64,000 nucleotides of DNA from the human T2T-CHM13v2.0 reference genome, Homo sapiens. The notes beneath the pieces were generated by a model. The model did no database searches. It saw only the letters and a list, made by a program, of their open reading frames with translations, and was not told the origin of the DNA. The stretch lies in the NCBI RefSeq assembly GCF_009914755.1, contig NC_060947.1; one strand, 5' to 3'. Both the position numbers and the translations under genes were made by a program. Positions 4,440 to 50,867 of the stretch are shown piece after piece. Within the stretch, counting starts at the first letter, position 1. Each line of letters starts with the position of its first letter.

Positions 4440-4612
4440 CAACCTCTCCAGTGCTCCTGAAGCTTTGTTGCCTATGTCAACCTCAGGGATCTTATGAAAA
4501 GGTAGGTCTCAGTTACGAGGTCAAGGGTGGGGTTGGAGAGTCTCTGTTTCTGACAAGCTCCCAGGTAGGGTTGCTGTGGCTGGTTCATGGACACACAGTT
4601 AGCAAAGTGCTA
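4440..4612. mobile_element. MER5A-like hAT fragment
   Basis: gtaggtctcag...ctctgtttctgacaagctcccaggt...gctggttcatggacacac. Confidence 0.55.
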
Positions 4613-4854
4613 AGAATCCAGCCATTGCAATTGATCTTTCCATCTTTCCAAGCTCCCTTGTGCTTCACTGAACCACACCAAATAAACACTCAGTGTTATT
4701 CAGCCTTTGCGACTATTGTTTGAAATCCTACCAGATCTGGGGTTTTAAGTCAAGCCCAGCTGCACATTAGCATCATTTGGGAGGCTTTTTAAAAAGATGA
4801 ATGCCTGTTCTCCAAACTATGATATCAGAATCTCTTGAGGGTGCTGTCTGGACA

Positions 4855-5970
4855 TTTTAAAATATTGAGACAAAATGTACATAACATTCAATTAACTGTT
4901 TTAGAGTGTACAATTCAATGGCTTCTAGTACTTTCACAGTGTTGTGCAACTATCACTTTTTTCTTTACCCCAAAAGGAAACCCAGTGCCTGTTAGCAGTC
5001 ATTCCTCATTCCCTGCTCCCATCCTCAGACCCCAGCAATCACTAATTTACTTTCCATGTCTATGGCTTTTCTTATTCTGAATATTTCATATAAATAGAGT
5101 GATACAATATGTGGTCTTTTGTGTCTAGCTTATTTCACTTAGTCTAATTTTTTAATCTATATTGTAGTATACACTAGTAGTTTATTTCTCTTTATGGCTG
5201 AATACTATTCAACTGTATAGATATACCACATTTGTTTATCCATTAATCTGTTGATATACATTTTGTTTGTTTCCAAGTGTGATTATTGTTAAGAGCCCTG
5301 CTATTAACATTCATTTACATGTCTTTGGATACCTGTTTTTAATCTTTTGGGGCATGGATGGATAGATAGATATAGATAGATAGATAGATACACACATATA
5401 CACACACATATACACACATACACACACACACACACACACATATATGTATATAAAATATGCCTAGGAGTGTAATTGCTGGTTCATATGGTACCATAGACTG
5501 AATGTCTCTGTCCTCCCAAAAGTCATACATACGTTGAGATCTCAACCCCCAAGATGGAGCTATAAGAGGTGACTTAGATCTTTGGGACATGATCTAGGTG
5601 ATGAGGGTGGAGGTGATGAGCGGTGATGAGGGTGGAGCCCTTATGAATGGAATTAGTGTCCTTATGAAAAAGGCCCCAGAGAGCTCCCTCACCTCTTCCA
5701 CCATGTGCCTTCTCCACCACACAGCGAGAAGGCCCCGTCTATGAACCAGGAAGCGGGTTCTCACCAGGCACTGGATCTGCTGGTGCCTTGATCTTTGAGC
5801 CTCCAGAACTGTGAGATGGAAATGTCTACTGTTTATAAGCCACCCAGCCTATGGCATTTTGTTATGGCAGCCAGAAAGGACTAAGACATATGGTAACTCC
5901 GTTTTCACCTTACTGAGGAAATGACAAACCCTTTCTCACGGTGGCTGTGCCACTTTACATTCTCACTGGA
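4855..5970 (-). mobile_element. Old L1M (L1MB-like) 3' region with (TAGA)(CA) microsatellite and MLT1A0 insertion
   Basis: gtgtacaattcaatggcttctagtactttcacagtgttgtgcaactatcac; atttcatataaatagagtgatacaatatgtggtcttttgtgtc; cctaggagtgtaattgctgg. Confidence 0.8.
5489..5888 (+). mobile_element. MLT1A0 MaLR solo LTR
   Basis: gactgaatgtctctgtcctccc...tctatgaaccaggaagcggg...ggactaagaca; exact 5-bp TSD tatgg (5484-5488 / 5889-5893). Confidence 0.85.
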
Positions 5971-6099: not shown

Positions 6100-6590
<491 letters not shown>

Positions 6591-7760
6591 ATAATTTTAT
6601 AATTTGCAATAGTTTCACTTCACCCTATAACATACGCACTTTCCCACATCCTGTACTATTATTTGAAAACACAGTTTAACATCTACTTGTAATCTTTTAA
6701 TATAAAACAAGCCCACTATGCACTTAATCATTATATCTGGGGCCATTTGATTTTTCCCATTTTTTATGAAATACAAATAATACTCCATGAATACTCTTGA
6801 CAATAAATATTTCCACACATCTCGGAATATTTCCTTGAGTTAAATTCAGAATCATAATTACCAAATTACAGCGTTTAGACATTTTTATCTTTATGCTGTG
6901 TTGGCCACTTCATTGGATCTGAGCTCTTTCTGTGGAGGGAAAACCAATACTTTCATTCATCACAAACAAGGAAGACAATATGGGTTATTGGCTATTTTTA
7001 TTCTATTGCAAATATTGCTGGATCACCAATTCTGGGTTAATTTTTTTCTCAATCCAGGAGAAATAGATGCTATATATTTCCAGTCTCACTGCTTCCTTGC
7101 TATTTATGATGCTTTGCCCAGCTTTTTAATTTATCAGTCCTCAGTTTCTGTACCTACACCTTAAGGGTAAAAATACCCTACCTACTTAGTGGTATAGATA
7201 ATAATGATAGAACTTGTGCAGAAAGCCCTTTGTAACTGCCGAGCACAATACAACATGTGAGATATTTTTATAACTAGGCTCAGTGCTTTGAAAAGTTCAC
7301 TCCCAGAGGACTCCCCCAATAGAAATATCCTCATTTGCTTTGAGCCGTGGCTTTCATCAGCCTGACCTAAGCTGTATTATTTGCTCTGAATTCTTTAGGG
7401 ATCTGCAGAAGCTTTACTATTCACATATGCATATTTTGCAACTGTATGAATGCACTCCTTAAATTTCTGGGAGTTGGTTCACCTTAGGCAGAATTTGTAA
7501 ATAGTATATTTCTGGCTTATTTTCTATTTCCTTTTTATTTTAAGCCATGTGCCGATTCCATTGCATCCATCTTTACAGAGCTTGCCTCAAATCCTTTTTG
7601 GGGAAGAGGCAATAGAGAAACAGAAAAACAAGTCAACAAGCAAGCAGATAGATACAGTAGCACACTGTAGGATCTATTTGATACTTCCTCTTCCTTTCTG
7701 AACCTTTATAGCAAGGTCTATACTTACATGGAAACTTTAAATAGAAACTATGACACCTAC

Positions 7761-8068: not shown

Positions 8069-9010
8069 GCAGAAGGAAGCTTCTATGCCTTTTTATAGAC
8101 ACGCTGGCCCCCTTACGTCCCTGAAATATTCTCTCTCCAAAGTTTCAAAGGTAGGACTTGCTAAGCGGGCAGTCCCGAAAGGGAAGTCTTGGAAACACCC
8201 TCTATCTGGAACAGGACCTACCCACACTCTGGTAAAGAATAGGGTATCTATACATCCCCAACGAAGAAACTGAGCTGAAAAACCAGGATGACGAGGCATG
8301 CAAATCTATTTGCAACCTTGGGCCAAGCTCCCAAGGCCAGCCACCCTGAGCATTGCTGCTTTGCCCTCTTTGATTTCCAGGGAATTAACACTCCTCAAGT
8401 TCCCCTGCATGTCACCTGCAGCCTGGGAGAAACATGGTGACTTGGGGCTCCCTGCAAGACACGGGATGTGTGATTCAGCCCCTTTTGATGCAGTACTTGA
8501 GGAAATGTCAGGGAGCAGAGAGTGAATAATCATTTGCATCCAGAGTGCCGCAGGCAGCTCTCCAAGAGGGAGCCCGCAGAAGTTGAGGCTTCCGAGGAGG
8601 CCGGGGACCCCTGTTTAGTTTTGAACTCAGCATGGGGGGAGAAAGAGAGATAGAGAGAGAAAGACCATTTCCCACAGAGCCGACAAATGCAGGGTTAAAT
8701 AAAAACAGTGGTACCCGTGGAAGAACGGGGAGAGCGTGCCAGCTGGAGCCTTTATTTCATGTTAATCATTCTTGTAGTTGCTGTAGCCTGAGAAAGACAC
8801 ATTTGTTATGCAGACAGTGTTCGTTGTCAAAGACTGATCAAGAATGCAGGAGTGCGGCCACAAAATGAATTAGCTCTCTGGATACCAAATGGGAAAGCCA
8901 ATTCGAACCAGAGCATGGCACAAGGGCTCCAGCAGGATTGAAATATACTAGGTGCGCATAAGAGCGAGCATTGTGACCACTGCTAATTATTTGCTATTTT
9001 TAGCACAGGC
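8069..9010 (-). promoter_or_regulatory. Candidate TATA promoter / proximal enhancer
   Basis: TATAAAAAG on minus strand (8097-8089); CRE-like TTACGTCC 8113-8120; perfect octamers ATGCAAAT 8298-8305 and ATTTGCAT 8532-8539; perfect MEF2 site CTATTTTTAG 8994-9003; locally raised CpG; no repeats. Confidence 0.55.
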
Positions 9011-27194: not shown

Positions 27195-27755
27195 ATCATA
27201 GCTGCCTCTAAAATGCCCCCCAACAGTCCCTGACCCTTGCTATGCATGTCCTCATACAGTCCTCTCCTACATTGCATCAGGGTTGGTTTATTGGATCAAT
27301 AAAATATTATTATTTGCATAGTAATGGTGCATGACTCCCGCAGCTAGGTCATAAAAGAGATTATGGTTTCTGTCTTGCTCTCTCTCTTGGGTCATTCATC
27401 CTGAAGAAAGATGGCAGCCATCTTGTAAGGACACTTAAGCAGCTCTATGGAGAAGGCTGCATGGTGAGGAACTGAGGTCTTCTTCCAATAGACAGTGAAA
27501 AACTGAGATCTCCAGCTAACAGCTACATAAGTGATCCATCTTACAAGTGGTTCCTCCTGCCCTGGTCAAGCCTTCAAATGACATCAGCTCCAGATGACAT
27601 CTTCACTGCAATCTCATGAGATGCCTGAGCCAGAAATACCAAGCTCAGCCACTCCAGGATTGCTGAGTCACAGAAAATGTGAGAAAAGAAATGTGTGTTG
27701 TTGTAAGCCATTACATTTTGAGTTGCTGTGTTCCACAGCATTAGATAACTAATAT
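27195..27755 (+). mobile_element. MLT1F-like MaLR LTR
   Basis: ctaggtcataaaaga; ggtgaggaactgagg; gtcaagccttcaaatgac; cagcattagataactaatata. Confidence 0.8.
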
Positions 27756-28994: not shown

Positions 28995-29538
28995 CATGTA
29001 ATCTCTTCATGTGACTAAAATAAGATGCAAAATGGATGAGATATGATATGTGGTTAACTGCTAAACTTTAACCTTCATCCTTTAAAACGAGTTCTTAAGT
29101 TCACAATGATGTAGTAGAATTTTTTCTTTACTATGGCATTTGATTCTAATTTACCTGAAGGATTTAGAGGAAGTGTGGACCCATGACTCACTTATGTAGC
29201 TGTTAGCTGGAAGCCTCTGTTTTTCACTGAAAAACTTAAGTATTTTAGAAAGAATTTAAAATACTCTTGGCTAAACCTGCAAAATAAGTACATAAAGAAA
29301 GGTATTTTAAGATTAAATCTCAATATTTAAAACACAGTTTGGAGGGCTTTAAAAAATTCTTTATTTCTATATATTCAAACATATTACCAAACTGAAAGAT
29401 AAACAGCATTTTTAGCTATCAATCCAGGCCTGGGAAAAGCAGAGCAAGACTATTTATTTTTTGAAAACCTTAATGGGAAGAGAGAAATAAAAGTTGAATA
29501 TACATTAGTAAAAAACAAAACCTTATCACTACTCTATC

Positions 29539-35689: not shown

Positions 35690-36068
35690 TAAATGATCAT
35701 TTGGAATGCCAATTAACACGCAGATTGTGAAGGGAAAATAATGGAAGCAGAAAGCCCCAATAGGAAGGTTTCTCTAGTAAAAGTGGTGAGACAAATTGGC
35801 ACTTTGCAGTACAGCACAAGCAGTGGGAATGGATGGAGATAGGACAGAGAGACGTCTACTACCCTCTGGCAAGTGTGGCCATCTCTTCCCAAAGGTGTGA
35901 TTTGCTTTTTTAACACTTCCAGGTACTTGCTTCTCATGAACTTACAATTGACATTGTGTCATTTATTTGGTGATCATTTTAATATTTTTTTACCTTTTCT
36001 AAGCATCTTCCAGCAACATCTTCAATCCAAAACTGGGGGGCCTTTTGAGAGTAGACTCGGTGAAATTT

Positions 36069-36379
36069 ATTATTTTTATTTATTAATGTATTTATTGAGA
36101 CAATGTCTTCTCTGTCACCTAGGCTGGAGTGCAGTGGCATTATCATAGCACACCATAGTCTTGAACTCCCTGGCTCAACTGATCCTTCCACCTCAGCCCA
36201 AGCAGCTGGGACTACAGGTGCACATCAACACATCTGGCTAATTTTTATTTTTTATTTTTTGTAGAGACAGAGTCTCACCATGTTGCCCAGGCTGGTCTCC
36301 AACTCCTGAACTCAAGCAATGTGCCTGCCTCAGCCTTCCAAAGTGCTGGGATTACAGGCGTGTGCCACCATGCATGGCC
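36069..36379 (-). mobile_element. AluJ
   Basis: Full reverse Alu; TSD ggtgaaattt / ggtgagattt. Confidence 0.9.
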
Positions 36380-37809
36380 TAGGTGAGATTTTTATGATGG
36401 CTTTTAGGTTGGAAGGGGAGCAGTTAGAGAGAAAAGGGTATGAAGACTGACTTCCAGGAAGCATGAGTGCTAGATCCATGACCCTGTATTTCCTGAGAGA
36501 GAACATGCAGAAGGCTCATGTTGGAGCAATGCATCCTGAGAGGAGAGAAGCCCAGGAATTATGGTTGGCAATAGTTAAGACTGAAATTCCACTAAGGCAT
36601 CAAAATAGCTGTGCTAGTGAGGCAATAAAATGTAGAAATCTGGAATTCTCAAGAGAGATATGAATATAGAATTCCATTAGCACACAGAGGGTATGAAGGT
36701 CACAGAATGCAACCAGGAAACACAGAGGCAGGTGGAGGAAACTCCACTACCTACTGGACAGGTGGAGGAAGAAGAGCAGGAAATGAGCCCTCTGAAAGGT
36801 TGCCTATTGGAAGTTTGTATTTTTCTCCTTCATCAATCTAGAGAACCTTTATACAGCCATGTTTACAAAATGTGTTCACTTAAGAGCCATTAAAGAAGGT
36901 TGTTGTTATTTTTTGACTGTTTGTTTGCTTTTGGGTTGCTTTCATTCCTTTTGCTGCCTTTGTCATTCCTCACGGAGGTCACTCCATGAACGTTTAACAG
37001 TGCACAGGTGGAGTAATCCGATATCCAGGGACCTGCACAGATGTCTTACCCTGTGTTGGCTCTTTGTAATTCCTTTCTCAGGCATTAGGTAGCTCCAACA
37101 TAATAGAACTATTGCCAACATTTTACTCTCTTTCCCTGATAACCAAAGTACCGACCTAAATTAAATTGCTGACCGCATTATTTGTGAGTCCAAATTTAGC
37201 TTCCCCTCTCGTACCATTAATGGTCTGTTGCAGAGTTTCTCTACTTCCATTTGCGAGTGTAACTATGTCCCTGCCTATCCAGGTGTCGCAATGGAAGCAG
37301 AAGTTTGGACATCAGTGAGTTTTTAGCGTGTGTGATATTGGTAGAGAAGGCACGGTGTGCAAGGACCTGGCTTGCCGTCGGAGGGTGGCGATGAAGACAG
37401 CACATGATGTCTCTTTTCAGGACAGCTGAAGCAAGTCAGCCCCATCCTGGAGGAAGCCCAGCTGCCGGCCCAAAGATCAAAGGTGTCTCCCAAGGCCGGC
37501 TGTCACTAGACTGTGCTCAACGTTTGCCCTCATCTCTATGTATGAGGACAGATATTCAGAATGATACTCCAGTTGGCTGAAATCTCCCTTTGCCATAAGC
37601 AGATAGATGGAAATATATGCATCTCTATTATAGATACCAGGAAGCATTTGTCAACGAGGATAGACAAGTGAAAGTGGCTAAATTTGACTGTAGAAAATAT
37701 GTTCATGGAGTGAATAGCCAAAATGAGGGTACCAGTTCCATTTAGGAAAAGGAAGTCTGAAAAAATATCTAAAGACAAAAGAAGGGCAGCATCTAAATGA
37801 GGAGCAGAA

Positions 37810-37990
37810 CCTAGCAGAGAAAATGATTTTAGAGTTAGGCAAACCTAGCTTCCAACATAGCCATTGTTTATTAGTAGCATGACCACATCTCTGGGTCCCA
37901 GCCTTCTTGTATTAAAAAAAAAATGATGAGCATTACATAGAGTGATACATATCTAAGTTCCTAATGGCATGCATGGCATATGATTCATGT
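37810..37990. mobile_element. MIR fragment
   Basis: tttagagttaggcaaacctagcttccaac...gccattgtttattagtagcatgacc. Confidence 0.55.
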
Positions 37991-39060
37991 CCAGAATACT
38001 TTAGTCTTTCCTTGGAAAACATTTCAACAACTTGTATTTTTGCTCTCACATCTTAAGAATATCCACGTTCCCATCCATTCTCTATAAAATATTTTTCACA
38101 CCTTGGCAAAACTTTAGGCTTCATCTCTATTAGAAAACCTATAAAAAATTCATAAATATGAAATTAGAGCCTGCAGGAATGTAAATTTTATTCTGTGGTT
38201 ATGATGTGTGCCTCCAGGAAATGACCCTTTATATGCATAAAGCTGTATCACATTTATGGTCTGATTTTGATGCCTGGATAGGAAGGATAAAGCCACCCTT
38301 TGCTTGACAGAATTCCCTTTCCATTTCCCTTCTCCTTGAATTACCATGGTCAGAATAAGGGAGAATAATAATGACTACAGTGGCTCCCAAGCAGGTTTAC
38401 GTTCATTATTTTAGTTAAGTATGACAATGGTTCTCCTGGCTTATCAAAATTAGTGAAGTTATCTGCACACAGTGAAAGAAAGATCTTAAAATATAGATGT
38501 AACCTGACCCACCCTTGGGATAAACACAGAATTTAAATAGTGAGCCCACAGCATGTTTGAAGTGCCTTGTATTTTTCAGTACTCATGTCCAAGGACAAAA
38601 AGATGAACAAGAAATAGTCCCTATTCTCAAAGAGGAAACGGTTGCCTTGCAGGGATATACCTGGAAGCAAATCAGTGAAAAGAACTAACCTTCTCAGAGG
38701 CAGTGGCATGAAAACAAGTCCTTGTATGTTGAGTAGAAAATCTGCTCACGGGCTGGACACGTGTGTTTGGGGATAAGGATGTGAAGAGAATTGAAGGCAT
38801 CAGATTTGCACATGATCCCATAGCATGTGGCCAAGCCCAATCAAATGCTGGCTGACTGCTCCTTCCCTACTCTCAAGCTGAATTCTTTTATTTATTTATG
38901 TATTTTTGTTAGCCAGGACCTTGGCATGTCTTCAAGTTGCCACAGAAAAATGTCCCTTCTTAGTGGAGAAGAGAGACCACAGGGGCATCACCTCACATTT
39001 ATTTAATTCATACATCCCATGGGTTCTCAACATGGTCATCATCAATATGCTTTTTAAAAA

Positions 39061-39347
39061 TTTTAAGATATGGGGTCTTGCTCTGGTGACCACACTGGAG
39101 TACAGTGGCGCGATCATAGCTCACTACAGCCTCAAACTCCTATGCTCAAGGGAGCATAGGAGTTTGCTCCCCAGTAGCTGGGACTACAGGCACACATCAC
39201 ACCCGACTAATTTATTGATTTTTTTTTGTAGCAATAGGGTCTCCCTTCGTTGCCCAGGGCTGGTTTTGAACTCCTGAACTCAAGCAATCCTCCTCCCTCA
39301 GCCTCCCAAAGTGTTGGGATTACAGGTGTGAGCCACAGCACCAAGCC
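39061..39347 (-). mobile_element. AluJ carrying a perfect internal hairpin
   Basis: Reverse Alu; TSD-like tatgctttttaaaa / tatgcctttttaaaa. Confidence 0.9.
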
Positions 39348-39613
39348 CTATATGCCTTTTTAAAATATACCAAATGTAATGCCTTCTTTATATCTTGAAA
39401 TAAAATTAATGTATCATAGAACCTACCACAGTCATAATTTGAAAATGAGTCAAGATAATATGCAAACCACGATATAAATGACAAAAACCAAGGAAGGTAG
39501 TTCTTATAAAATAACATGTATTCCAATATGCAAGTGATCAGGCACAGTTGCAAAAGAAGACATCATGAGACACACATCCCTATACCTCCTTAGGATGCAT
39601 AAGCCTGGGTTTA

Positions 39614-39874
<261 letters not shown>

Positions 39875-40988
39875 CTAAGAGAAAATGCAGGACATGAAAA
39901 ATCAGGATGCAAATGGCACTAGAATAACAACTAGTATTAAGATGAGGACCAACAAACAAGATTTCGTTGATAGTAGTAAAAGAAAAAAGAAAGGAAGTGA
40001 TTGCAAATAAAGTAGGGATAACATGCCAAGACAAATTGCAGACTGTCCAAGGAAAGAAAGCACGAGATCTCCGCACATGAGCTTGGGTTGCTTATTAAGT
40101 GTAGTGTCAGAGGTACTTCCCGGGCTATGACATGAAACAGGTTGTAACAAACGATCACAGAAAACATAGCCCTATTTGGAAACTCCACCATGTGTTACGA
40201 TGCCTCCAATATGGTGAGTGGAGTGCATTTCACTGACACAATTTTCCAAAGCAGGGCTCAACATTTGGAAAAATTCTAGACAAAACAAAGTACAGTCTTA
40301 CCTCACTTTTTGCAATTCTCAGACTCCGTATGAAAAAAATGGCCCTATGAATTCCCAAAATGCTCCATAGAGGGCAACACCATCTACATTCAGAATTATT
40401 AGAAGTCCTGGAAGTCAATGATAAGATTAGCTCCTGATTGAACTGAGAAATTACTGCCCTCTGAGGGGATGAGCAATCAGCGAGTATGTAGAAGGAAGGC
40501 AGAAAGAAGGAAAATGAAATACAACAGCTACCAGGTGAAGCTCAAGAATTAGATATTGAGCCCAAACTCAGACAGCTATTGAACTACTATTGCTGTCCCC
40601 AACTCTGCCCACTACAGCCCCAGGTTCTTTCCACCACCCACATGGAGAGTGGGTTTTTAGATAACGTTAGTCATTCCTCACTCATCACATGATTGCTTTT
40701 TGGCAACAGGCTGTATGTAATTTATGCCTTGCTAGGGAGGTGGACCAAGCCAAACATGGAGAAAAGAGTCATGCAACTCAAAGACATTCCTTTGTCCTGA
40801 AGCATAGCCCAGCAACACTAAGAACCCCTTGCTGCTCTTACTCATAGTCAAAAAGTCAGGCTTCGATTCTCAAAAATAGGAGTGTATACAGGTTTAACCT
40901 ATAAATGGTTCAGATAGCATTGATACACTTGCACTGACGAAGTTCTTATTTCTTTCCATGTCTTTAACATTTGGGGAGGACTGACTGA

Positions 40989-41374
<386 letters not shown>

Positions 41375-41532
41375 TTTTTTTTTTTTAATTATTTTTTTCT
41401 TATTTTTTAAAAACTAGCTTCAGGGTCTCACTGTATTGCCCTAGCTGGTCTCAAACTCCTGAGCTCAAGTGATCCTCCTGGCTTGGCCTCCCAAAGTGCT
41501 GTGATTACAGGAGTAAGCCATGATACCTGGCC
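41375..41532 (-). mobile_element. FLAM / Alu left-arm monomer
   Basis: cagggtctcactgtattgccctagctggtctcaaactcctgagctcaagtgatcctcc. Confidence 0.8.
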
Positions 41533-42549
41533 TGTTATTTTTATCTGTTAATGCTTGCAGCTCATTCTTGTGAGAGGGAGGAAGCTCTAACCCAGAGAGT
41601 CCATCTCCATTTTAAGTGCAAATATATGCTGGGCCCCGAAGGGGCTGCCATAACATGCAATTCAGATGTAGAAAGAAAGAAGGGACTGGCCCCCAGGAAA
41701 AGAGGTCATTCAGAGGGAAAGAGAAAATAGAAGGTACCAGGGGATGTGAGAAAGAATGGTGACTAAGGCAGCATGAGACATCAACATTGAGATAATTCAA
41801 CATGGTTGGAACAAAGTCAGGAGCAAAACAGCACGGTAGCCCTGCAATCTCACCATAGCATCTTCTCAAGAGAAGGATTTGCATCTCCAGGTGAGTATCG
41901 AGACTGTAAATTACAGTGAGAAAGGTGTGCACAGACAGTCTCTCATCCACCATCTTCAGACTCAAAGCACAAGGAGGGTGAGATGTCTCAACAAACACTG
42001 CAAAGAGCTGGGGAGTGATGCCAGACAGGTAACTCTGCAAAACTCATCTTGCAAGGATGATGAATAGGAGTTTTGACAATTCTGTCAAACCCTTCAAATC
42101 TTAAGTGACTTGAAAGTTCCAGTAATTTTTTTCTTTAAAACAAGTGGAATTGCACTTTTCCATTGTTATGCAAATTACCTTCCCCAAGACATCTATTTAC
42201 CTGTTACTATGGTTCTCAGGTAGTTTCTCCATGCCTTGGGCAGTGGAGGTGGGTAAGGATATAAAGTTTAAAAATGATGTCTTCAATAAGAAAGTTTGAA
42301 GAGACATTACTCAAAGAAACGATTTTAATGTGATATTTTATGTATGAGAGACCTAAGCTTTTCCTTACATGTGGGAAATAGAAAAGTATGATAGGGTTTC
42401 AAGTTCTGCCATCAAGTTTTGATAACAATCAACAAAACAACACCCTGTGTTTTTCCCTACCCCAAGACACAGCAACTTCAAATTTGAAAGATAGCTCAAT
42501 AAACAAAAATGGAGTATCTTTGCTTTTTAAAGAACTGATCTCAGCTTTA

Positions 42550-42983
<434 letters not shown>

Positions 42984-45289
42984 ACTTGGTCCTTACAATC
43001 TGCTGAGAGGCTTAAACATAAATACAAATAAACATAAACACAAACAATACACGGGAATAGCTAAGAGAAAAAGATTCAACTATGGCTTTTTTTAAAAAAT
43101 GCTGAAGAGCTTTGTAACTCTTCCAAAGACTTCATGATAAACAGCTCAGGGCCCTCTTGGTTAATGCTTGGAAGAAAAACAGTTTTTCTTTCAAACATCT
43201 TCTTTGGAACAGAGACTTCCTTCCAAAGAATTCTCTCCTGCAACCCACCCAGTAGCCAGTCTAATAAAATGTGTAAGAGGAGAAAAATGGTCTTACTCTC
43301 TCCTTTCCCCCCGTAGGGCGTAGCAAAAAATTGGAAAACAGAAAAATGGAATCTGGTGACACTTGAGACTAATGCCCGAATCTCCTGCTTCTGATTTTTC
43401 CAGCAGCCAGTCCGCATCCTCTCAGCACCCCTATTCAGCTATCACTCTCGTTTTGCTGTAGTAGGTCACAGATCAGATGATGGGGGGTGGGTGTTTGGTT
43501 TGGGTGTAACTTTTGTTGTGTTTTCAGCAGATTCAGCCCAGCACAACTTGTCAGGAGATTCATGACTTAGCAATTGTCAGGGATTGGTCAAGTCATATTG
43601 AAAATGAGATTAACTGAAAGATTCAAGTGGCCAGCCCTATGCTAGACTTTGTAGTGCTTCCAAGGGGGTTCACGTGAAGGAGTCACATCTGGGCTTCAGG
43701 CTCATCAAAGGCAGGAGTGAAACGCATTGGCTCACCCTTGGCTGCCATTGCGGGAGAAACATGGGAGGTGAGACAGCACCACGGACAGCTCCAAGACACA
43801 CGTTTCCCCTAACACGGTTCCCTCTCCTCTTGATCCTGGGTTCTCATTCTGGTTGGTCCAGACACCTAGGACTTAACAACCTGAAAACATCAGCCCACAT
43901 TGTCCCTTTAAGCCACGTGGCACCAGGTTTCTTTTTTACTGAATGTCCCAATGACTTCCTCATTTGTGAACTATCCTGGCACCCAGTTCAACATTTTATC
44001 TGAAACCCTACAAATCTTTTTCTTCTATCTCTTACAATGAAATGCGAGCCATCTTTTCATGCAAGACTCATTTTTCTAGTTGTTCTGAAAAAAAACTCTC
44101 AGTTTTTCAGAAGATTCTTTCAACTATTACCCATCCCCATCTCCCAAATCGCCACGAATGCCACCAAATATTATCAGATATTGAGATGAGGTACAGTGAG
44201 TTAGGAGGGGTGGGGGTTCTGTTTATTTTCATGATTGTTTTAAATTTGTTTTAATATTAATAATAAAACGTCCACCTCCAAACTAACCAATGGGCAAATA
44301 TACCCCTCTAAATTTCAGAGGAAACAATAAAAAGTTTGATGGCCTGTGGGAAAGCAATTAAATAAAAAATGAGAAAGCTGGGATAAGAAAATGTGTTTTT
44401 TTTGCTATAAGCCTTTTTAAAATGAGATCTGACGTTTAATTCTGACGTGAGTAATTTTTCAGATAAAATTAAACACAACATCCTGCTTCCTAATCTTTTG
44501 AGAACCAAAGCTAATGGGAGCTTTTGAAATGTGATTATGTTACTCCTCTTTTTAAAAATTTTCAGCACAACCAAAAATGCCCTTAAAATAAAGATGCTCC
44601 ACTAGAGCTTAATGGGTGTTTCCATTTCTCCTCATCTCTTCTTTCTCTCCTGAAGTCAGGATTAGGGACCTCTTTGCCTGTTTTCATAGCAGTTTGGACT
44701 TCTTCTATCATGTCAGAATGTTTCTGTGTCTCCTTTAAACTCCAGGTTCCCTGGATATAGACACTTTTTCTTGTTGCTATTCATGATTGTTTCAGTGACA
44801 ACACGACGGCTTCATGTTTATTAAGTGAATGGACAGACATTTCTTCTCTCATTTTCCTGACCAATGCTTGGGGGAAAAATCAGATTGTCAGAAAGGGTAC
44901 CTAAATGATAACTTATTGAAAATGAAAAAAAAAAAAAAGAAAGAAACCCAGCCTGTCCATTTGGCAAAGTGATGAAAATAACATGCCCCAAATATGCCAC
45001 ATTCTTCTCTGGAAAAGAAATTCTGATTCCAACTCTTCTCCCAGTCCACTTTGCTGTAAACAAGGGAAAAAAAGCATACATAATAAAGAAAAAGTAAAGG
45101 TATGTCTATGAAGAAAAAACTGGAAACAACAGACACCAACTACATCCGTTATAGTCATTCAAACTGAAAACCTCAAATTAAAAGGTTATTTAGACTGTTG
45201 CCAGTCCAGAGAATTTCAAATATCAGTCCTTTAATTTGATTTATCAAAGAGAGATAAAGAATTTGTCAAAAAAACATCAAAAAAGCAAT

Positions 45290-45410
45290 TCAGGGCCTCT
45301 TGGCTACCTTGCCAAATCAGAATCTCTGAGGGTGAGGCCTAGAACTGGGCAATCTCTAAAATTTCCCCACAGAACTCTGATGCGTGTCCAGGCGTGAGAA
45401 CCTAGACTAT
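45290..45410. mobile_element. MER5A fragment
   Basis: aatcagaatctctgagggtgaggcctagaa...ctctgatgcgtgtccaggcgtgagaacc. Confidence 0.65.
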
Positions 45411-45671
45411 AGCCCAGCCTCCATAAAACATGTGGATAGACTTGTGGCATTTCTGAGAGATGGCCATTTGGTCTCTGCTTGAAATCCTCTAATTAAAAAC
45501 TCATTGCCTTTCACAGAACTTTATTCTATTTTCAGAAACCTCAAATCATTGAAATATACTTACTGTTTTAAATCAACTATACCAAATCCTCCCATAACTT
45601 TTACTCATTGTCACTTATTTGCTCTTGGAGAATCAACAGAGCAAATCTAAACCTTCCTCGCCATTTAAACC

Positions 45672-46842
45672 CATATATATGGGGCTTTATATATATGTAT
45701 ATATACACACTATATTATATATAGTATATACATTATACATGTAATGTATATACTATATATTTTTGAGACAGTATATAGCTATTATATATAGTATATACAT
45801 ACATATATACTACATATACACTATGCATATATACTTACAATCTGCTGAGAGGCTTAAACATAAACATGAATAAACATAAACACAAACAATACAAAGGAAT
45901 AGCTAAGAGAAAAAGAAAGTCTATAAAGATGATCTTACATTTAGAATTAGCTATACATACATATACATATATACACTATATGCATAGTATAGTATATGCA
46001 GTGTATATATATTACATGTATAGTATATATGTATATATACTATATGCATAGTACATATATTAATACATATATGTACTATGTGACACGTATGTATTTTTAT
46101 ATATACATATAGTACATATACTATATACTATAGATAGTATATGTATAGTATATGTACTATACTACACTATACTAATGTACTGTACTATACCATATATACT
46201 ATATATAGTACCTACATACTATACTATATGGTATACTATATACTATATTTATACATCTATACTATACTATAGTATATACACACATATACTATGTGTATAT
46301 AGTATGCATATTATATACATATATAGTATAATATACGTACACTATACACAATACATACTATATGTATGTATACTATACATGTACATATACTAGACATACT
46401 ATATTTGTATAGTTTATATACACTATATATACCATATAGCATATAAACACTATATATACTATATAGTATATACAATATATATACACACATAGTATATACG
46501 ATATAGTATATACAATATATATACACATACAGTATATACTATATAGTATATACAATATATATACACATACAGTATATACTATATAGTATATACAATATAT
46601 ACACACATACAGTATATACTATATAGTATATACAATATATATACACATACAGTATATACTATATAGTATATATAATATATATACACATATAGTATATACT
46701 ATATGTATATACAATATATATACACATATAGTATATACTATATAGTATATATAATATATATACACATATAGTATATACTATATAGTATATACAATATATA
46801 TACACTATATAGTATATACTATGTGTGTGTATATATATATAT
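45672..46842. repeat. ~1.17-kb TA-rich low-complexity block with a 40-bp-period minisatellite and a captured insert
   Basis: Unit atatagtatatacaatatatatacacatacagtatatact repeated ~9 times (~46451-46820); non-repetitive insert at 45834-45948. Confidence 0.9.
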
Positions 46843-47124
46843 TTTGAGATAGTATCTCACTGTGTCTCCCAGGCCGGAGTGCAGTGTTGTGATCATAGCT
46901 CACTGCAGTTTCTACCTCCTAGACTCAAGCCATCCTCTTGCCTCAGCCTTCTGAGTAGCTGGGAATACAGGTTCATGCCACCATGCCCAGATAATTTTAT
47001 TTTTTCAGAGATACGGGATCACTGTGTTACCCAGGCTAGTCTCAAACTCCTGGCCTCAAGTGATCCTTTTGTCTTGGCCTCCCAAAGTGCTGGGATTACA
47101 GGCACCAGCCACCATGCCCCGCCT
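46842..47124 (-). mobile_element. AluJ whose tail end abuts the TA block
   Basis: ttttgagatagtatctcactgtgtctcccaggccgg...gatcatagctcactgcag. Confidence 0.9.
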
Positions 47125-49500
47125 TAAGCCTTTCAAGTATTTGAAAAGAGCTACCTTGTTGTATTAATTATCTGTCACTATCTAACCAATTATCAAACTA
47201 TCTCCAAGTTTGTGACCCAAAACAAAAAGCATTCCTTGAGGTTTCTGCAAATTGAGGGTCTGGATGTGGTCACCTGGGTTCTCCATTTCAAGAAGAAGAT
47301 CTCTTATAGGCTACAAATATTCTAGTCAATGGGAAAGATTCACTAAGTCCTGCCCACACACAAGTGCAAACGGATCCTCAAGAGCACCAATTTCAGCAGG
47401 CAGGGATGATTGGATACATTTTTGAAGGCCGCCTACCACATATGTGGCTCTGTTTTCTTTTCTCCGGGTCCACACTTTCCTTAATCATCTCTCCAGCAGG
47501 AAGCCCAGGTCTGCATTTCTTCATACTCTGCACTAGTCCTTACTTGGACTTAGACATTTAGCCATGGCTCTTCTCATATCTCATTCAAAAATAAAACCAA
47601 AAGGGATGCCTTTCTGTCTCTTCATTTCCCCCAAGTCCCTGTTTTTTTGTTTTAATTTAGAAAATGTTATTTGAATCTTCCCCAAAATTTAGGATATTTT
47701 CCACATAAGTCCACAAGCAGCAACTTAGATAAGCAGGCTGCCTGTGTAAGTGTGTGTCGCTATTTCCACCCTCCAACTACTTTCTTTTCTTGTTTATGCT
47801 GGATGTCTCAAAACCCATATTCTATATGAAGTCTCATTGCTCAAGCTGGGAAAGCTTTGTTCTCCAAAATCCTTGATGTTTAGACACACACAGAAAGTCA
47901 CAGTACCACACACACACCCTGAGTAGTATCCTTTAGGTTATTTTGAGCTCTTCCTTCAAATCCCAGCAGTTTGAAGTGCACATGCTGAGCAACTCTCAGC
48001 AGAGCTGAGGAAAGTCTATAAAGATGATCTTACATTTAGAATTGACTAAAGGGTTTTATTTTTAGTTTTATTGGTCTGTTTTCTGTCACAGAGGGGCTGC
48101 CATTGTAATAGTCCTGCCAAACATCGCATTCAAGATTTAATACATGGATACACCTGTCAGCCATAGCTTCCCAACTTAAAGTAAATGAATTTGTAAAGAT
48201 GCATATTTATGACTGTGCAAATTCTAAAGCTAATAGGACAAATAAACTCTCTAAATTTCCAATTTTCTACATTTAATATTTCATGTATTCAAAATGTACA
48301 CCAAGTCAGTCAATCCTCCTTCTTTCCTCAGAATGGAAATACAAACCACTGTCATTGACATCTTTATTGTGAAGTCCATACTGGACTTACCTTGGGTGTC
48401 TATATAGTGAATGCATCTTGGGAATAAGCTCAGAACACAGCCAGCATTTACGATCAAGTAAATCCAGGCTGGCTTGCTTCCTTTGACTTCTATCACCTGC
48501 CACAGGTAAAATATAATATCCCTGTAGCTGGGTGAAAACATCATGTGTTTTGGATTTATACAGATTTGAGTATACACCTGAATTTAATTAAACCACTTCA
48601 GAAATGTGTATAAATCATTGATTCTTCGTAAGCCTGCTTTCCCATGATTTAACAAATTTTAATACTAGGAATATTAAAGATGATGATAGTTCAAAATGTT
48701 GAAGAAACAAAGAACAAACGGTATATAAAAGTTGTTCATTCTCTTCCTTCTTGCTGTTTCTAGAGCTCACTAGAAAATTTCTTCCAGAAAGATATCCTTC
48801 TTACTGGAAAAACTTGGTAAAATGTACGGAGACCCCCAGAATTTTAATACTCAAGTGACACCACTTAAATGTGGATAAAGAATGAAAATCCCAGCAATAT
48901 ATTAAAGACTGGGGTGGGATTTGGGCATCTTTATGGCATAAGCCAACAACACAAAGACTGGGTCTTCTGTTCAAGAGAAGAGAGTTCTGAAAATTGCTTT
49001 CCATGAAAGCTTTCTTCTTACAATTATTTGTCCCCTCACCCTGAGCCTTAGTAATATTTTACACATGCACACAAACAGAAGCCCACATACACTCACTCCC
49101 TCTATCCTGAATTTTAGATGTACTATTCATTCAAGAAGATATGGTACAATTCCACACTTGCTAATTCATGGATTCAATACTCATTTCTTCTCTGCAACAC
49201 AAAATGGTCCTTGGAGATATGACATAGGCTCCTTTGGAGCACCATACATTGCCAAGATTTGAGTGCTACTAAACGAAATTTGAAAGTTCCCCCTTTTATC
49301 TCCATAGAATGGAGGAGGCGATGGAAGAACGGATTCACTCAAAATCATATTTGAAACACGTCTTCATGGATCCATGGTATGTTTTTTAAAGTAGGTTTTC
49401 ACTTGTAATACTTTGTCTCCATTCATAATCGTAGGGATCTGACAGGGGACTTTGCAGTCTTTTCATTTTTGTAAAAGAATTTTCCTTTTGCCACTGATAT

Positions 49501-49553
49501 TGAGCTGCAGATGAGGTGTAGTTTGAGGTGAGCTGCAGATGAGGTGCAGTTTG
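49501..49553. repeat. 28-bp tandem duplication
   Basis: tgagctgcagatgaggtg(t/c)agtttg repeated at 28-bp offset. Confidence 0.9.
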
Positions 49554-49623
49554 CCCCATGGTGTCTTTACCAGCTGCATAATATTTTGAGAGCGGAAGAG
49601 AGAACACACAGGGGATAATTTTA

Positions 49624-50867
49624 TAATTGTATTTTGTATTTTTATTAGAAAATACGTCAGGTGTGCAGAAATGTACAGATAATAACATAACAGATATCCA
49701 CAAATCTACCATCCAGACATAAAATATATATATTTTTTTCGCCATAAATTTTTCTTTTTTTTTTTTGACTGGGAAGAAAAACAGGTTTAATTGGACTTAG
49801 AGTTCCACATGGCTGGGGAGGCCTCAGAATCATGGCAGGAGGCAAAAGGCACTTCTTGCATGGTGGCGGCAAGAGAAAATGAGACGTAAGCAAAAGTAGA
49901 AACCCCTGATAAACCCAATAGATCTCATGAGACTTATTCACTATCACGAGAATAGCACGGGAAAAAGACTGGCCCCCATGATTCAATTACCTCCCTATGG
50001 GTCCCTCCCACAATACATGGGAATTCTGGGAGATACAATTCAAGCTGAGATTTGGGTGGGGACACAGCCAAACCCTATCATCCTGCCCCTGACTCCTCCA
50101 AATCTCACGTCTTCACATTTCGAAACGAATCATGCCTTCCCAACAGTTCCCCAAAAGTCTTAATTCATTTCAGCATTAACCCAAAAGTCCACAGTCCAAA
50201 GTCTCATCTGAGACAAGGCAAGTCCTTTCTGCCTATGAGCCTGTAAAATCAAAAGCAAACTAGTTACTTCCTAGATACCATGGCGGTACAGGTATTGGGT
50301 AAATACAGCTGTTCCAAATGGGAGAAATTGGCCAAAGCAAAGGGGTTATAGGGCCCATGCAAGTCCAAAATCCAGCAGGGCAGTCAAATTTTAAAGCTCC
50401 AAAATGATCTCCTTTGACTCCAGGTCTCACATCCAAGTCACACTGATATAAGAGGTGGGTTCCTATGGTCTTGGGCAGCTTCACCCCTGTGGCTTTGCTG
50501 GGTACAGCCTCCCTCTCGGCTGATTTCATGGGCTGGCATTGAGTGTCTGCGGCTTTTCCAGGCGCATGATGCGAGCTGTCAGTGGATGTACCATTCTGGG
50601 GTCTAGAGGACGGTGGCCCACTTCTCACAGCTCCACTAGGCAGTGCCCCAGTAGGGACTCTGTGTGGGGGCTCCTACCCCACATTTGCCTTCTGCACTGC
50701 CCTAGCAGAGGCTCTCCATGAGGGCCCTGCCCCTGCAGCAAACTTTTGCCTGGGTATCCAGGCATTTCCATTCATCTTCTGAAATCTAGGTGGAGGTTCC
50801 CAAACCTCGATTCCTGACTTTTGTGTACCTGCAAGTTCCAACCCTGCCAAGGGTTGGAACTTCCACC
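49624..50867 (-). mobile_element. Processed THE1A retrocopy (5'-truncated internal region, U3-R, poly(A), extra 3' segment)
   Basis: THE1-int 50081-50867; THE1A LTR 49767-50080 stops at cttcccagtc followed by poly(A) (T-run 49749-49766); exact 15-bp TSD caggggataatttta at 49609-49623 and 50868-50882. Confidence 0.85.

What the first reader, a model, noticed from the sequence alone, without database searches (positions are those of the whole stretch)
45834..45948. Chimeric insert inside a TA microsatellite, built from an upstream and a downstream donor
Seen: 115 nt of non-repetitive DNA sit inside the TA block. 45834-45916 is a gap-free copy of 42992-43074 (83 nt, 5 mismatches, ~2.8 kb upstream). 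45915-45948 is an exact copy of 48010-48043 (34 nt, ~2.1 kb downstream). The two parts overlap by a 2-nt microhomology (GA), both are in direct orientation, and both donors are intact. Known: long (TA)n tracts form cruciforms and are breakage-prone, and polymerase theta end-joining and MMBIR/FoSTeS create templated insertions. Inference: a break in the TA tract was repaired by serial template switching to loci on either side, which may record the local chromatin loop at the time of repair.
Basis: partly seen in the sequence, partly recalled or inferred. Interest (0 to 1): 0.8.

Follow-up and report, generated by a model that had tools for sequence, protein, structure and literature searches.

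The report
Old two-donor templated insert in AT-rich block
A 115-base patch inside a hairpin-prone AT-rich repeat in a PUDP intron was stitched together long ago from two nearby stretches of the same chromosome, a clear but ordinary example of copy-and-switch DNA repair.

Summary
45834-45916 copies 42992-43074 (83 nt, 5 mismatches, no gaps). 45915-45948 copies 48010-48043 (34/34). The two parts share a 2-nt GA. In the whole assembly the 115-mer matches only itself, the two X donors and one chrY gametolog of donor P. Donor Q's surroundings matched nowhere else. The collinear Y copy (11-14% diverged) has donor P and the AT-rich block but no insert, and the insert's X flanks map to adjacent Y positions. 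So the insert is derived. With Y as outgroup, 2 of the 5 mismatches are later changes in the donor and 3 are changes in the insert. The event is therefore old, roughly 10-25 Myr by inference, and is neither an assembly artefact nor simply polymerase error. Splicing, L1 hallmarks and a target-site duplication were not found. The best reading is one 3' end switching templates serially (MMBIR/FoSTeS-like) after trouble in a self-complementary block of about 1.16 kb. Both donors start 8 nt past structure-prone motifs. One of 20 other AT-rich blocks surveyed (chr16) shows the same pattern. This is a known kind of event with no functional consequence seen.

The parts
45834..45916 (+). Insert part P': direct copy of 42992-43074
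   Evidence: 83 nt, 5 mismatches, no gaps
45915..45948 (+). Insert part Q': exact direct copy of 48010-48043. Its first two bases (GA, 45915-45916) are shared with P' and mark the template-switch microhomology
   Evidence: 34/34 identical
42992..43074 (+). Donor P, in low-copy sequence 2.8 kb upstream
   Evidence: Apart from the insert, the only other match in the genome is the collinear chrY gametolog C24:16198834-16198916
48010..48043 (+). Donor Q, in low-copy sequence 2.1 kb downstream
   Evidence: 47150-49650 matches only itself and the insert genome-wide
45680..45833 (.). AT-rich block, part left of the insert
   Evidence: TRF rows. DNA MFE -18 to -20 kcal/mol per 120 nt. Aligns to Y 16201769-16201870
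45949..46840 (.). AT-rich block, part right of the insert. It has 40/80-nt periodicity and is strongly self-complementary
   Evidence: TRF. 121 inverted-repeat pairs with arms up to 122 nt. MFE down to -28 per 120 nt. Aligns to Y from 16201863
46841..47126 (-). Antisense Alu whose poly(A)-tail end abuts the AT-rich block
   Evidence: Read. Alu-family cross-matches. The name 'Alu' is my reading of the sequence, not a tool label
42851..42984 (+). Polypurine tract of about 134 nt with two pyrimidine interruptions, ending GGAGGGAGGGAGGGG. Donor P starts 8 nt after it
   Evidence: Sequence and run list. It holds the longest pure R/Y run in the window (76 nt)
47983..48001 (+). Perfect 7-bp hairpin with a 5-nt loop. 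Donor Q starts 8 nt after it
   Evidence: About 1% of non-block window positions lie within 10 nt downstream of such a hairpin
47993..48003 (+). 11-nt exact reverse complement of 42999-43009 (= 45841-45851, inside P/P'), ending 6 nt before donor Q
   Evidence: 9 of 3970 random 25-nt places reach a match of >=11 nt with P

Best explanation
A single old repair or replication-restart event. A replication fork stalled or broke in a hairpin/cruciform-prone AT-rich block. One free 3' end then primed on the minus strand at 42992 and copied 83 nt. It dissociated, re-annealed through its terminal GA at 48010 and copied 32 more nt. It then returned to the AT-rich block. The net result is a 115-nt insertion with both donors left intact (MMBIR/FoSTeS-type serial template switching, or an equivalent synthesis-dependent end-joining of a two-ended break). 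SHOWN: the two templates, their direct orientation, the 2-nt junction, the low copy number of both donors, the absence of the insert from the Y gametolog, and divergence on both lineages since the event. INFERRED: the initiating lesion, the enzymes, the direction of synthesis, and the idea that template choice was helped by single-stranded DNA exposed next to a polypurine/G-rich tract (donor P) and a hairpin (donor Q), and by an 11-nt complementarity between the nascent P copy and the sequence just before donor Q.
For: The copies and the junction are exact. Genome-wide, the 115-mer hits only itself, donor P, donor Q and one chrY paralog of P. Donor Q's region and donor P's region gave no other match. 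ChrY is collinear with X 36004-45678 and with 46088-47175. It carries donor P and the AT-rich block but no insert. The X sequence left of the insert (45745-45828) maps to Y 16201769-16201870, and the X sequence right of it (45951-46070) maps to Y 16201863-16201977. These Y positions are adjacent, so the insert is a clean addition. Polarisation with Y: at positions 32 and 61 the insert keeps the Y state and the donor changed. At positions 34, 35 and 62 the insert changed. At 5 further sites insert and X donor agree against Y, so the template was the X copy. The block is strongly self-complementary: DNA MFE is -15 to -28 kcal/mol per 120 nt against mostly -2 to -12 in nearby non-repeat sequence, although the Alus also reach -15 to -18; arms reach 122 nt. 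Both copies run in the same direction, as expected for one 3' end always using the same template strand. Donor starts lie 8 nt after a polypurine tract of about 134 nt and 8 nt after a 7-bp hairpin. The 11-nt inverted match next to donor Q is reached at 9 of 3970 random places. The same pattern occurs at a chr16 AT-rich block. Multi-template germline templated insertions are documented (PMC8421209, passages).
Against: No pre-insertion allele was available, so microhomology at the two outer junctions and any small target duplication cannot be read. The Y block is too diverged for that. Nothing distinguishes DNA from RNA templates, or a replicative switch from repair of a two-ended break. The non-B-motif and 11-mer observations were noticed after the fact, so their small probabilities are not proper tests. 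Donor Q cannot be polarised because X-Y homology ends near 47175. Fragility of this block is inferred from predicted folding only. That the window lies in fragile site FRAXB rests on my recalled coordinate conversion, not on a tool.
Confidence: 0.7

Rival explanations
1. A pre-formed chimeric fragment was captured at a double-strand break and joined by end-joining (a class-2 TSIP-like patch). For example, a cDNA could be made from PUDP intronic pre-mRNA or an antisense transcript, with the reverse transcriptase switching template at GA.
For: Class-2 TSIPs are break patches without a target-site duplication or poly(A), and many templated insertions are RNA-derived (PMC5110952, whole-text part 1). 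Templated insertions come from transcribed loci through a DNA/RNA hybrid intermediate (abstract of 10.1101/2022.09.30.509517). Both donors and the acceptor lie in one transcribed gene span (hub annotation). No significant flank duplication was found.
Against: The P/Q junction has no GT-AG, GC-AG or AT-AC signal on either strand in any of the three registers that the GA overlap allows (read). Joining would therefore still need a template switch. Both parts have the same orientation as their donors and lie within 3 kb in cis, which a local DNA switch explains without an RNA step.
Confidence: 0.15
2. Two independent insertions happened at the same spot. P' was inserted first and Q' later landed exactly at its 3' end, or the reverse.
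For: P' shows 5 of 83 differences and Q' shows 0 of 34, which could suggest different ages.
Against: At 6% divergence about 2 differences are expected in 34 nt, and zero then has a probability of about 0.13, so the two parts are not distinguishable in age (my arithmetic). A second hit exactly abutting the first, with shared GA and the same orientation, is improbable. Only 3 such low-copy short duplicates exist in 64 kb.
Confidence: 0.04
3. The insert was copied in one stretch from a homolog or sister chromatid that carried a 4.9-kb deletion (43075-48009), whose junction reads P|Q.
For: The P-end to Q-start junction has the topology of a deletion junction with 2-nt microhomology.
Against: This needs an extra unobserved allele. 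Homologous repair from such an allele should transfer the deletion rather than insert only 115 nt of junction into the middle of the deleted interval. No other copy of the junction was found in the assembly.
Confidence: 0.03
4. The insert is an assembly artefact, or the 115-mer is ancestral and the 'donors' are the copies.
For: AT-rich blocks are hard to assemble. No long reads could be inspected here.
Against: A chimeric mis-join would give exact copies. Here the insert differs at 5 sites, and at 2 of them it keeps the ancestral (Y) state that the donor has lost. Donor P sits in a continuous X-Y alignment and Y lacks the insert. Donor Q is embedded without a break in sequence that matched nowhere else.
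Confidence: 0.02

Closest known systems
MMBIR / FoSTeS templated insertions at breakpoints of non-recurrent rearrangements, and germline multi-template 'MMB-TI' events (PMC8421209; PMC11541566 introduction)
   Same: Short segments are copied from nearby templates, several templates are used in one event, there is 2-nt microhomology at the switch, and the donors are left intact. Germline events using up to five templates are reported.
   Different: MMB-TIs as searched in PMC8421209 are inverted copies of templates within 100 bp. Here both copies are direct and the templates lie 2.8 kb upstream and 2.1 kb downstream. No larger rearrangement accompanies the event.
Polymerase-theta end-joining (TMEJ) templated insertions
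   Same: Both are a templated insertion with microhomology at a repaired break. TMEJ is implicated at common fragile sites under replication stress (PMC11541566, passages).
   Different: That study analysed potentially templated insertions of 2-15 bp copied from bases near the breakpoints. Here the segments are 83 and 34 nt and were copied from kilobases away.
Templated sequence insertion polymorphisms, class 2 (PMC5110952)
   Same: Both are a patch of genomic sequence inserted at a presumed break, without poly(A) and without a target-site duplication. The size falls in the reported experimental range of 73-414 bp.
   Different: TSIP donors are distant, often on other chromosomes, and often RNA-derived. 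Here two donors lie in cis within 3 kb. The event looks fixed and old by divergence, but polymorphism was not tested.
AT-rich hairpin/cruciform-forming repeats at fragile sites (Flex1 of FRA16D; expanded TA repeats in MSI tumours)
   Same: The acceptor is a long, self-complementary AT-rich block. Such repeats stall forks and are cut by structure-selective nucleases (abstracts of PMC12972899 and PMC9890227, search listing).
   Different: Those are near-pure (AT)n tracts studied in somatic cells or yeast. This is a complex 40/80-nt periodic block, and breakage here is only inferred.

Membership tests
MMBIR/FoSTeS-type serial template switch | Inserted segments are copies of other genomic templates that remain intact | tested here: met
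   83 nt (5 mismatches) and 34 nt (exact) copies, with both donors present
MMBIR/FoSTeS-type serial template switch | Microhomology at every switch junction | tested here: inconclusive
   GA (2 nt) at the P/Q switch. The two outer junctions cannot be read without a pre-insertion allele, and the Y block is too diverged
MMBIR/FoSTeS-type serial template switch | Arises at a stalled or broken fork and depends on break-induced-replication factors | not testable with these tools
   There is only indirect support: strong predicted hairpin potential of the block
MMB-TI as defined by MMBSearch (PMC8421209) | Insertion is an inverted copy of a template within 100 bp | tested here: not met
   Both copies are direct and the templates lie 2760 and 2062 nt away.
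Polymerase-theta (TMEJ) templated insertion | Short insertion templated from sequence next to the break | tested here: not met
   115 nt from templates 2-3 kb away. The 2-15 bp class and templates near breakpoints are from PMC11541566 methods
TSIP class 1 (L1 ORF2-mediated) | Target-site duplication, poly(A) tail, TTTT/A insertion site | tested here: not met
   No poly(A) or poly(T) at either end of the insert. Flank similarity is no better than block background: score 45 against a mean of 84 for adjacent pieces, and 51 against a background maximum of 53.
TSIP class 2 (break patch) | Patch without TSD or poly(A), templated from a distant region, polymorphic in humans | tested here: inconclusive
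   No TSD or poly(A). However, the donors are local, and polymorphism cannot be tested here
Retrocopy of a spliced transcript | The junction coincides with canonical splice sites | tested here: not met
   In the three registers allowed by the GA overlap, the implied intron ends read TT..GA, AT..GG or GA..AG on + and their complements on -. None is canonical (read)

The most novel reading that the evidence does not exclude
Long self-complementary AT-rich blocks are recurrent germline acceptors that capture kilobase-range snippets from both flanks. Template choice is set by non-B DNA next to the donors (polypurine/G-rich tract, hairpin) and by short complementarity that anchors the nascent strand beside the next template. 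Such inserts would then be datable fossils of which flanking sites were single-stranded and in contact with a stalled fork. Support so far: this locus; one clear second case among 20 other blocks surveyed (chr16, with direct and inverted copies from about 1.6 kb upstream and about 2.4 kb downstream); and post-hoc positional coincidences (p about 0.002 and about 0.01).
Probability: 0.25. Interest if true: 0.55.

Novelty: new member of a known kind. Interest (0 to 1): 0.3.

Why it matters
This is a clean, datable, natural example of a two-template insertion. Both donors, the switch junction and an outgroup (the Y gametolog) can all be read. It shows that kilobase-range, direct-orientation template switching into AT-rich structured repeats has happened in the primate germline. 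With the chr16 case, it suggests that a genome-wide census of such islands in complete assemblies would be worthwhile. No exon or annotated element is touched, so no functional consequence is expected.

Tried and rejected
- **Target-site duplication.** Local alignments of the insert's flanks score no better than unrelated pieces of the block. AGCTAT and CTAT[AG]CATA each occur only twice in the block, with one copy on each side of the insert. That is suggestive, but the alignment scores do not support it, so I left it as inconclusive.
- **Global X-Y alignment across the block**. It was unreliable, so I replaced it with separate local alignments of each flank.
- **Splice origin.** Rejected because there are no canonical splice sites.
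- **Y copy as template.** Rejected: the insert differs from Y at 8 of 83 sites and from the X donor at 5 of 83, and it shares 5 X-specific states.
- **Error-prone synthesis as the sole source of the clustered mismatches.** Rejected for 2 of the 5 mismatches. The CA>TG pair at positions 34-35 could be two transitions through a CpG intermediate, which is inference.
- **Survey hits other than L026**. By coordinates alone, the hits in L021, L023 and L028 lie between neighbouring islands or tandem units. L015 gave two 26-nt matches at 88-92% that I did not follow up.
- **Literature.** I found no paper describing this insert. Searches were aimed at mechanisms and context, not at this locus, so this is not a claim of absence from print.

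Full report
**1. Observation**

Reading the window and comparing base by base confirms the finding.
- 45834-45916 equals 42992-43074 over 83 nt, with 5 mismatches and no gaps.
- 45915-45948 equals 48010-48043 exactly (34 nt).
- The two parts overlap in GA, both are direct, and both donors are intact.
- Identity ends sharply at all four outer ends.
- Self-BLAST gives E values of 5e-32 and 4e-13 for the two matches and nothing else above noise.
- A window-wide self-BLAST found only three low-copy duplicates of >=28 nt at >=90% in 64 kb. Two are these. The third is an inverted 42-nt pair at 27493-27534 / 29188-29229.

The host is not a simple microsatellite. Tandem Repeats Finder gives only 65-66% matches for period 2. 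It finds 40-nt and 80-nt periods, the latter at 96% over 4.6 copies. The block (45680-46840) is about 80% A+T. It holds 121 inverted-repeat pairs with arms up to 122 nt. Predicted DNA folding energies are -15 to -28 kcal/mol per 120 nt, against mostly -2 to -12 in nearby non-repeat sequence, although the Alus also reach -15 to -18. The block abuts the tail end of an antisense Alu at 46841-47126 (my reading).

**2. Copy number**

The whole assembly could be searched.
- The 115-mer matches itself, donor P, donor Q and one place on contig C24 (chrY), at 90% over the P part only.
- Donor P with its flank (42975-43400) matches only itself, that Y place and the insert.
- 47150-49650 around donor Q matches only itself and the insert.
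- The tool warns that it skips very common words and scores only the best candidates. These results therefore exclude a young repeat family, not an ancient decayed one.

**3. The Y gametolog as outgroup**

Y 16189000-16208999 is collinear with X 36004-45678, and again with 46088-47175 across the block and the Alu. Substitution divergence is 11.1-14.3% in four segments. This fits stratum 4 'around STS', for which 10-15% is reported (PMC2817401, passages). X-Y homology was not found beyond about 47175, so donor Q has no outgroup.

Y has donor P in the collinear position and has the AT-rich block, but no insert. The X flank left of the insert (45745-45828) aligns to Y 16201769-16201870. The right flank (45951-46070) aligns to Y 16201863-16201977. 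The two flanks are therefore adjacent on Y. The insert is derived on the X lineage, or was lost from Y, which is less simple.

**4. Polarising the mismatches**

- At positions 32 and 61 the insert has the Y state and the X donor differs. The donor changed after the copy was made.
- At positions 34, 35 and 62 the donor has the Y state and the insert changed.
- At five other sites insert and X donor agree against Y. The X copy, not the Y copy, was the template.

This has three consequences. First, the insert is real and old, because an assembly mis-join would be an exact copy. Second, at least two mismatches cannot be synthesis errors. Third, a rough age follows. Five differences in 115 sites is 4.3% (Poisson 95% range about 1.4-10%), against 12.4% X-Y divergence next door. 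Allowing for a faster Y (recalled) and a stratum-4 age of 30-50 Myr (recalled, Lahn and Page 1999), the event falls at very roughly 10-25 Myr. This date is inference, not measurement. Zero differences in the 34-nt Q part is compatible with the same age (probability about 0.13).

**5. What it is not**

- **Spliced retrocopy.** In all three registers that the GA overlap allows, the implied intron ends are non-canonical on both strands.
- **L1-mediated insertion.** There is no poly(A) and no target-site duplication beyond block background. The criteria are from PMC5110952.
- **MMBSearch-type MMB-TI.** That class is an inverted copy with a template within 100 bp (PMC8421209).
- **Typical polymerase-theta insertion.** That class is 2-15 bp with templates at the breakpoints (PMC11541566 methods).

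**6. Mechanism**

The simplest account is one 3' end that left the AT-rich block. It copied 42992-43074 from the minus strand, switched through GA to 48010 and copied to 48043. It then rejoined the block. The mirror-image order from the other end is equally possible. The common orientation of both parts fits one end using one template strand throughout.

Three further observations bear on template choice. All were noticed after the fact.
- Donor P begins 8 nt after a polypurine tract of about 134 nt that ends in GGAGGGAGGGAGGGG. The tract contains the longest pure purine run in the window.
- Donor Q begins 8 nt after a perfect 7-bp hairpin. About 1% of non-block positions lie within 10 nt downstream of such a hairpin.
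- 11 nt inside P (42999-43009) are the exact reverse complement of 47993-48003, which ends 6 nt before donor Q. A match that long was reached at 9 of 3970 random places.

One reading is that the nascent P copy annealed there, opened the duplex and exposed the minus strand on which its own 3' end then primed. This is a hypothesis only.

**7. Context**

- AT/TA repeats form cruciforms, stall forks and are cut (abstracts in the listing).
- FoSTeS, MMBIR and TMEJ are the candidate routes at fragile sites (PMC11541566).
- Insertions need donor-acceptor contact (abstract).

FRAXB is mapped to hg19 X:6,595,111-7,548,235 (table in PMC4232749). From recalled gene coordinates I think the window lies inside that interval. 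I had no liftover tool, so this is unverified.

**8. Is it a one-off?**

Sequence like the block occurs at 336 or more places genome-wide (40 of 1963 candidates were scored). I fetched 20 distinct loci from the top of that list. I ran a script that finds non-AT islands inside AT-rich blocks and matches them to the surrounding 10 kb. The script recovers both parts of the present insert as a control.

- **15 of 20 loci:** no hit.
- **3 of 20 (L021, L023, L028):** the hits lie between neighbouring units, judged by coordinates only.
- **1 of 20 (L015):** two 26-nt matches, not followed up.
- **1 of 20 (L026, chr16):** a clear case.

In L026, islands at 4538-4612 and 6504-6582 (direct) and at 4679-4715 and 6617-6655 (inverted) copy 2825-2903. 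Islands at 5513-5565 (inverted) and 6163-6220 (direct) copy 8585-8633. The first donor matches nowhere else in the genome except an inverted duplicate of the whole locus about 105 kb away that carries the same islands. The second donor belongs to a multi-copy family that I read as L1, but its best matches (96%) are the local copy and its duplicate. A second batch of loci could not be fetched.

**9. Verdict**

The event belongs to a known class, touches no annotated element, and is of modest interest. The more general idea, that such blocks are recurrent acceptors with structured donors, is open and testable.

Noticed in passing
L026 (G000:C16:20492500-20502499), islands 4538-4612, 4679-4715, 5513-5565, 6163-6220, 6504-6582, 6617-6655: A 2.4-kb AT-rich block on chr16 holds six non-AT islands. 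They are direct and inverted copies of a low-copy stretch about 1.6 kb upstream (2825-2903) and of a repeat fragment about 2.4 kb downstream (8585-8633). The whole arrangement is repeated in an inverted duplicate about 105 kb away (C16:20389664-20391542).
   Followed up: partly
window 45761-45775 and 46842-46856: TTTTTGAGACAGTAT, near the left end of the AT-rich block, resembles the tail junction of the antisense Alu at the right end of the block (TTTTGAGATAGTAT). The Y copy has the same internal motif at about 16201787. The block may have grown from the Alu tail by old internal duplication.
   Followed up: no
window 45670-45690; Y 16201567-16201597: A GC-clamped palindrome sits at the left edge of the block (X: CCCATATATATGGGG; Y: AAAGCCCCATATATATGGGGCTTT).
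   Followed up: no
window 27493-27534 and 29188-29229: An inverted pair of 42 nt (38 of 42 identical) lies 1.65 kb apart. It is the only other low-copy short duplicate of >=28 nt and >=90% in the window.
   Followed up: no
window ~47175 (Y ~16202785): X-Y gametolog collinearity, continuous from 36004, was not found beyond this point, just past the Alu. X 47150-49650 has no Y match.
   Followed up: partly
window 42969-42983: GGAGGGAGGGAGGGG lies at the end of the polypurine tract and is a possible two-tetrad G-quadruplex motif. The Y gametolog lacks it (it reads GGAAGGAAAGAAGGAGAGAAA at this position).
   Followed up: no
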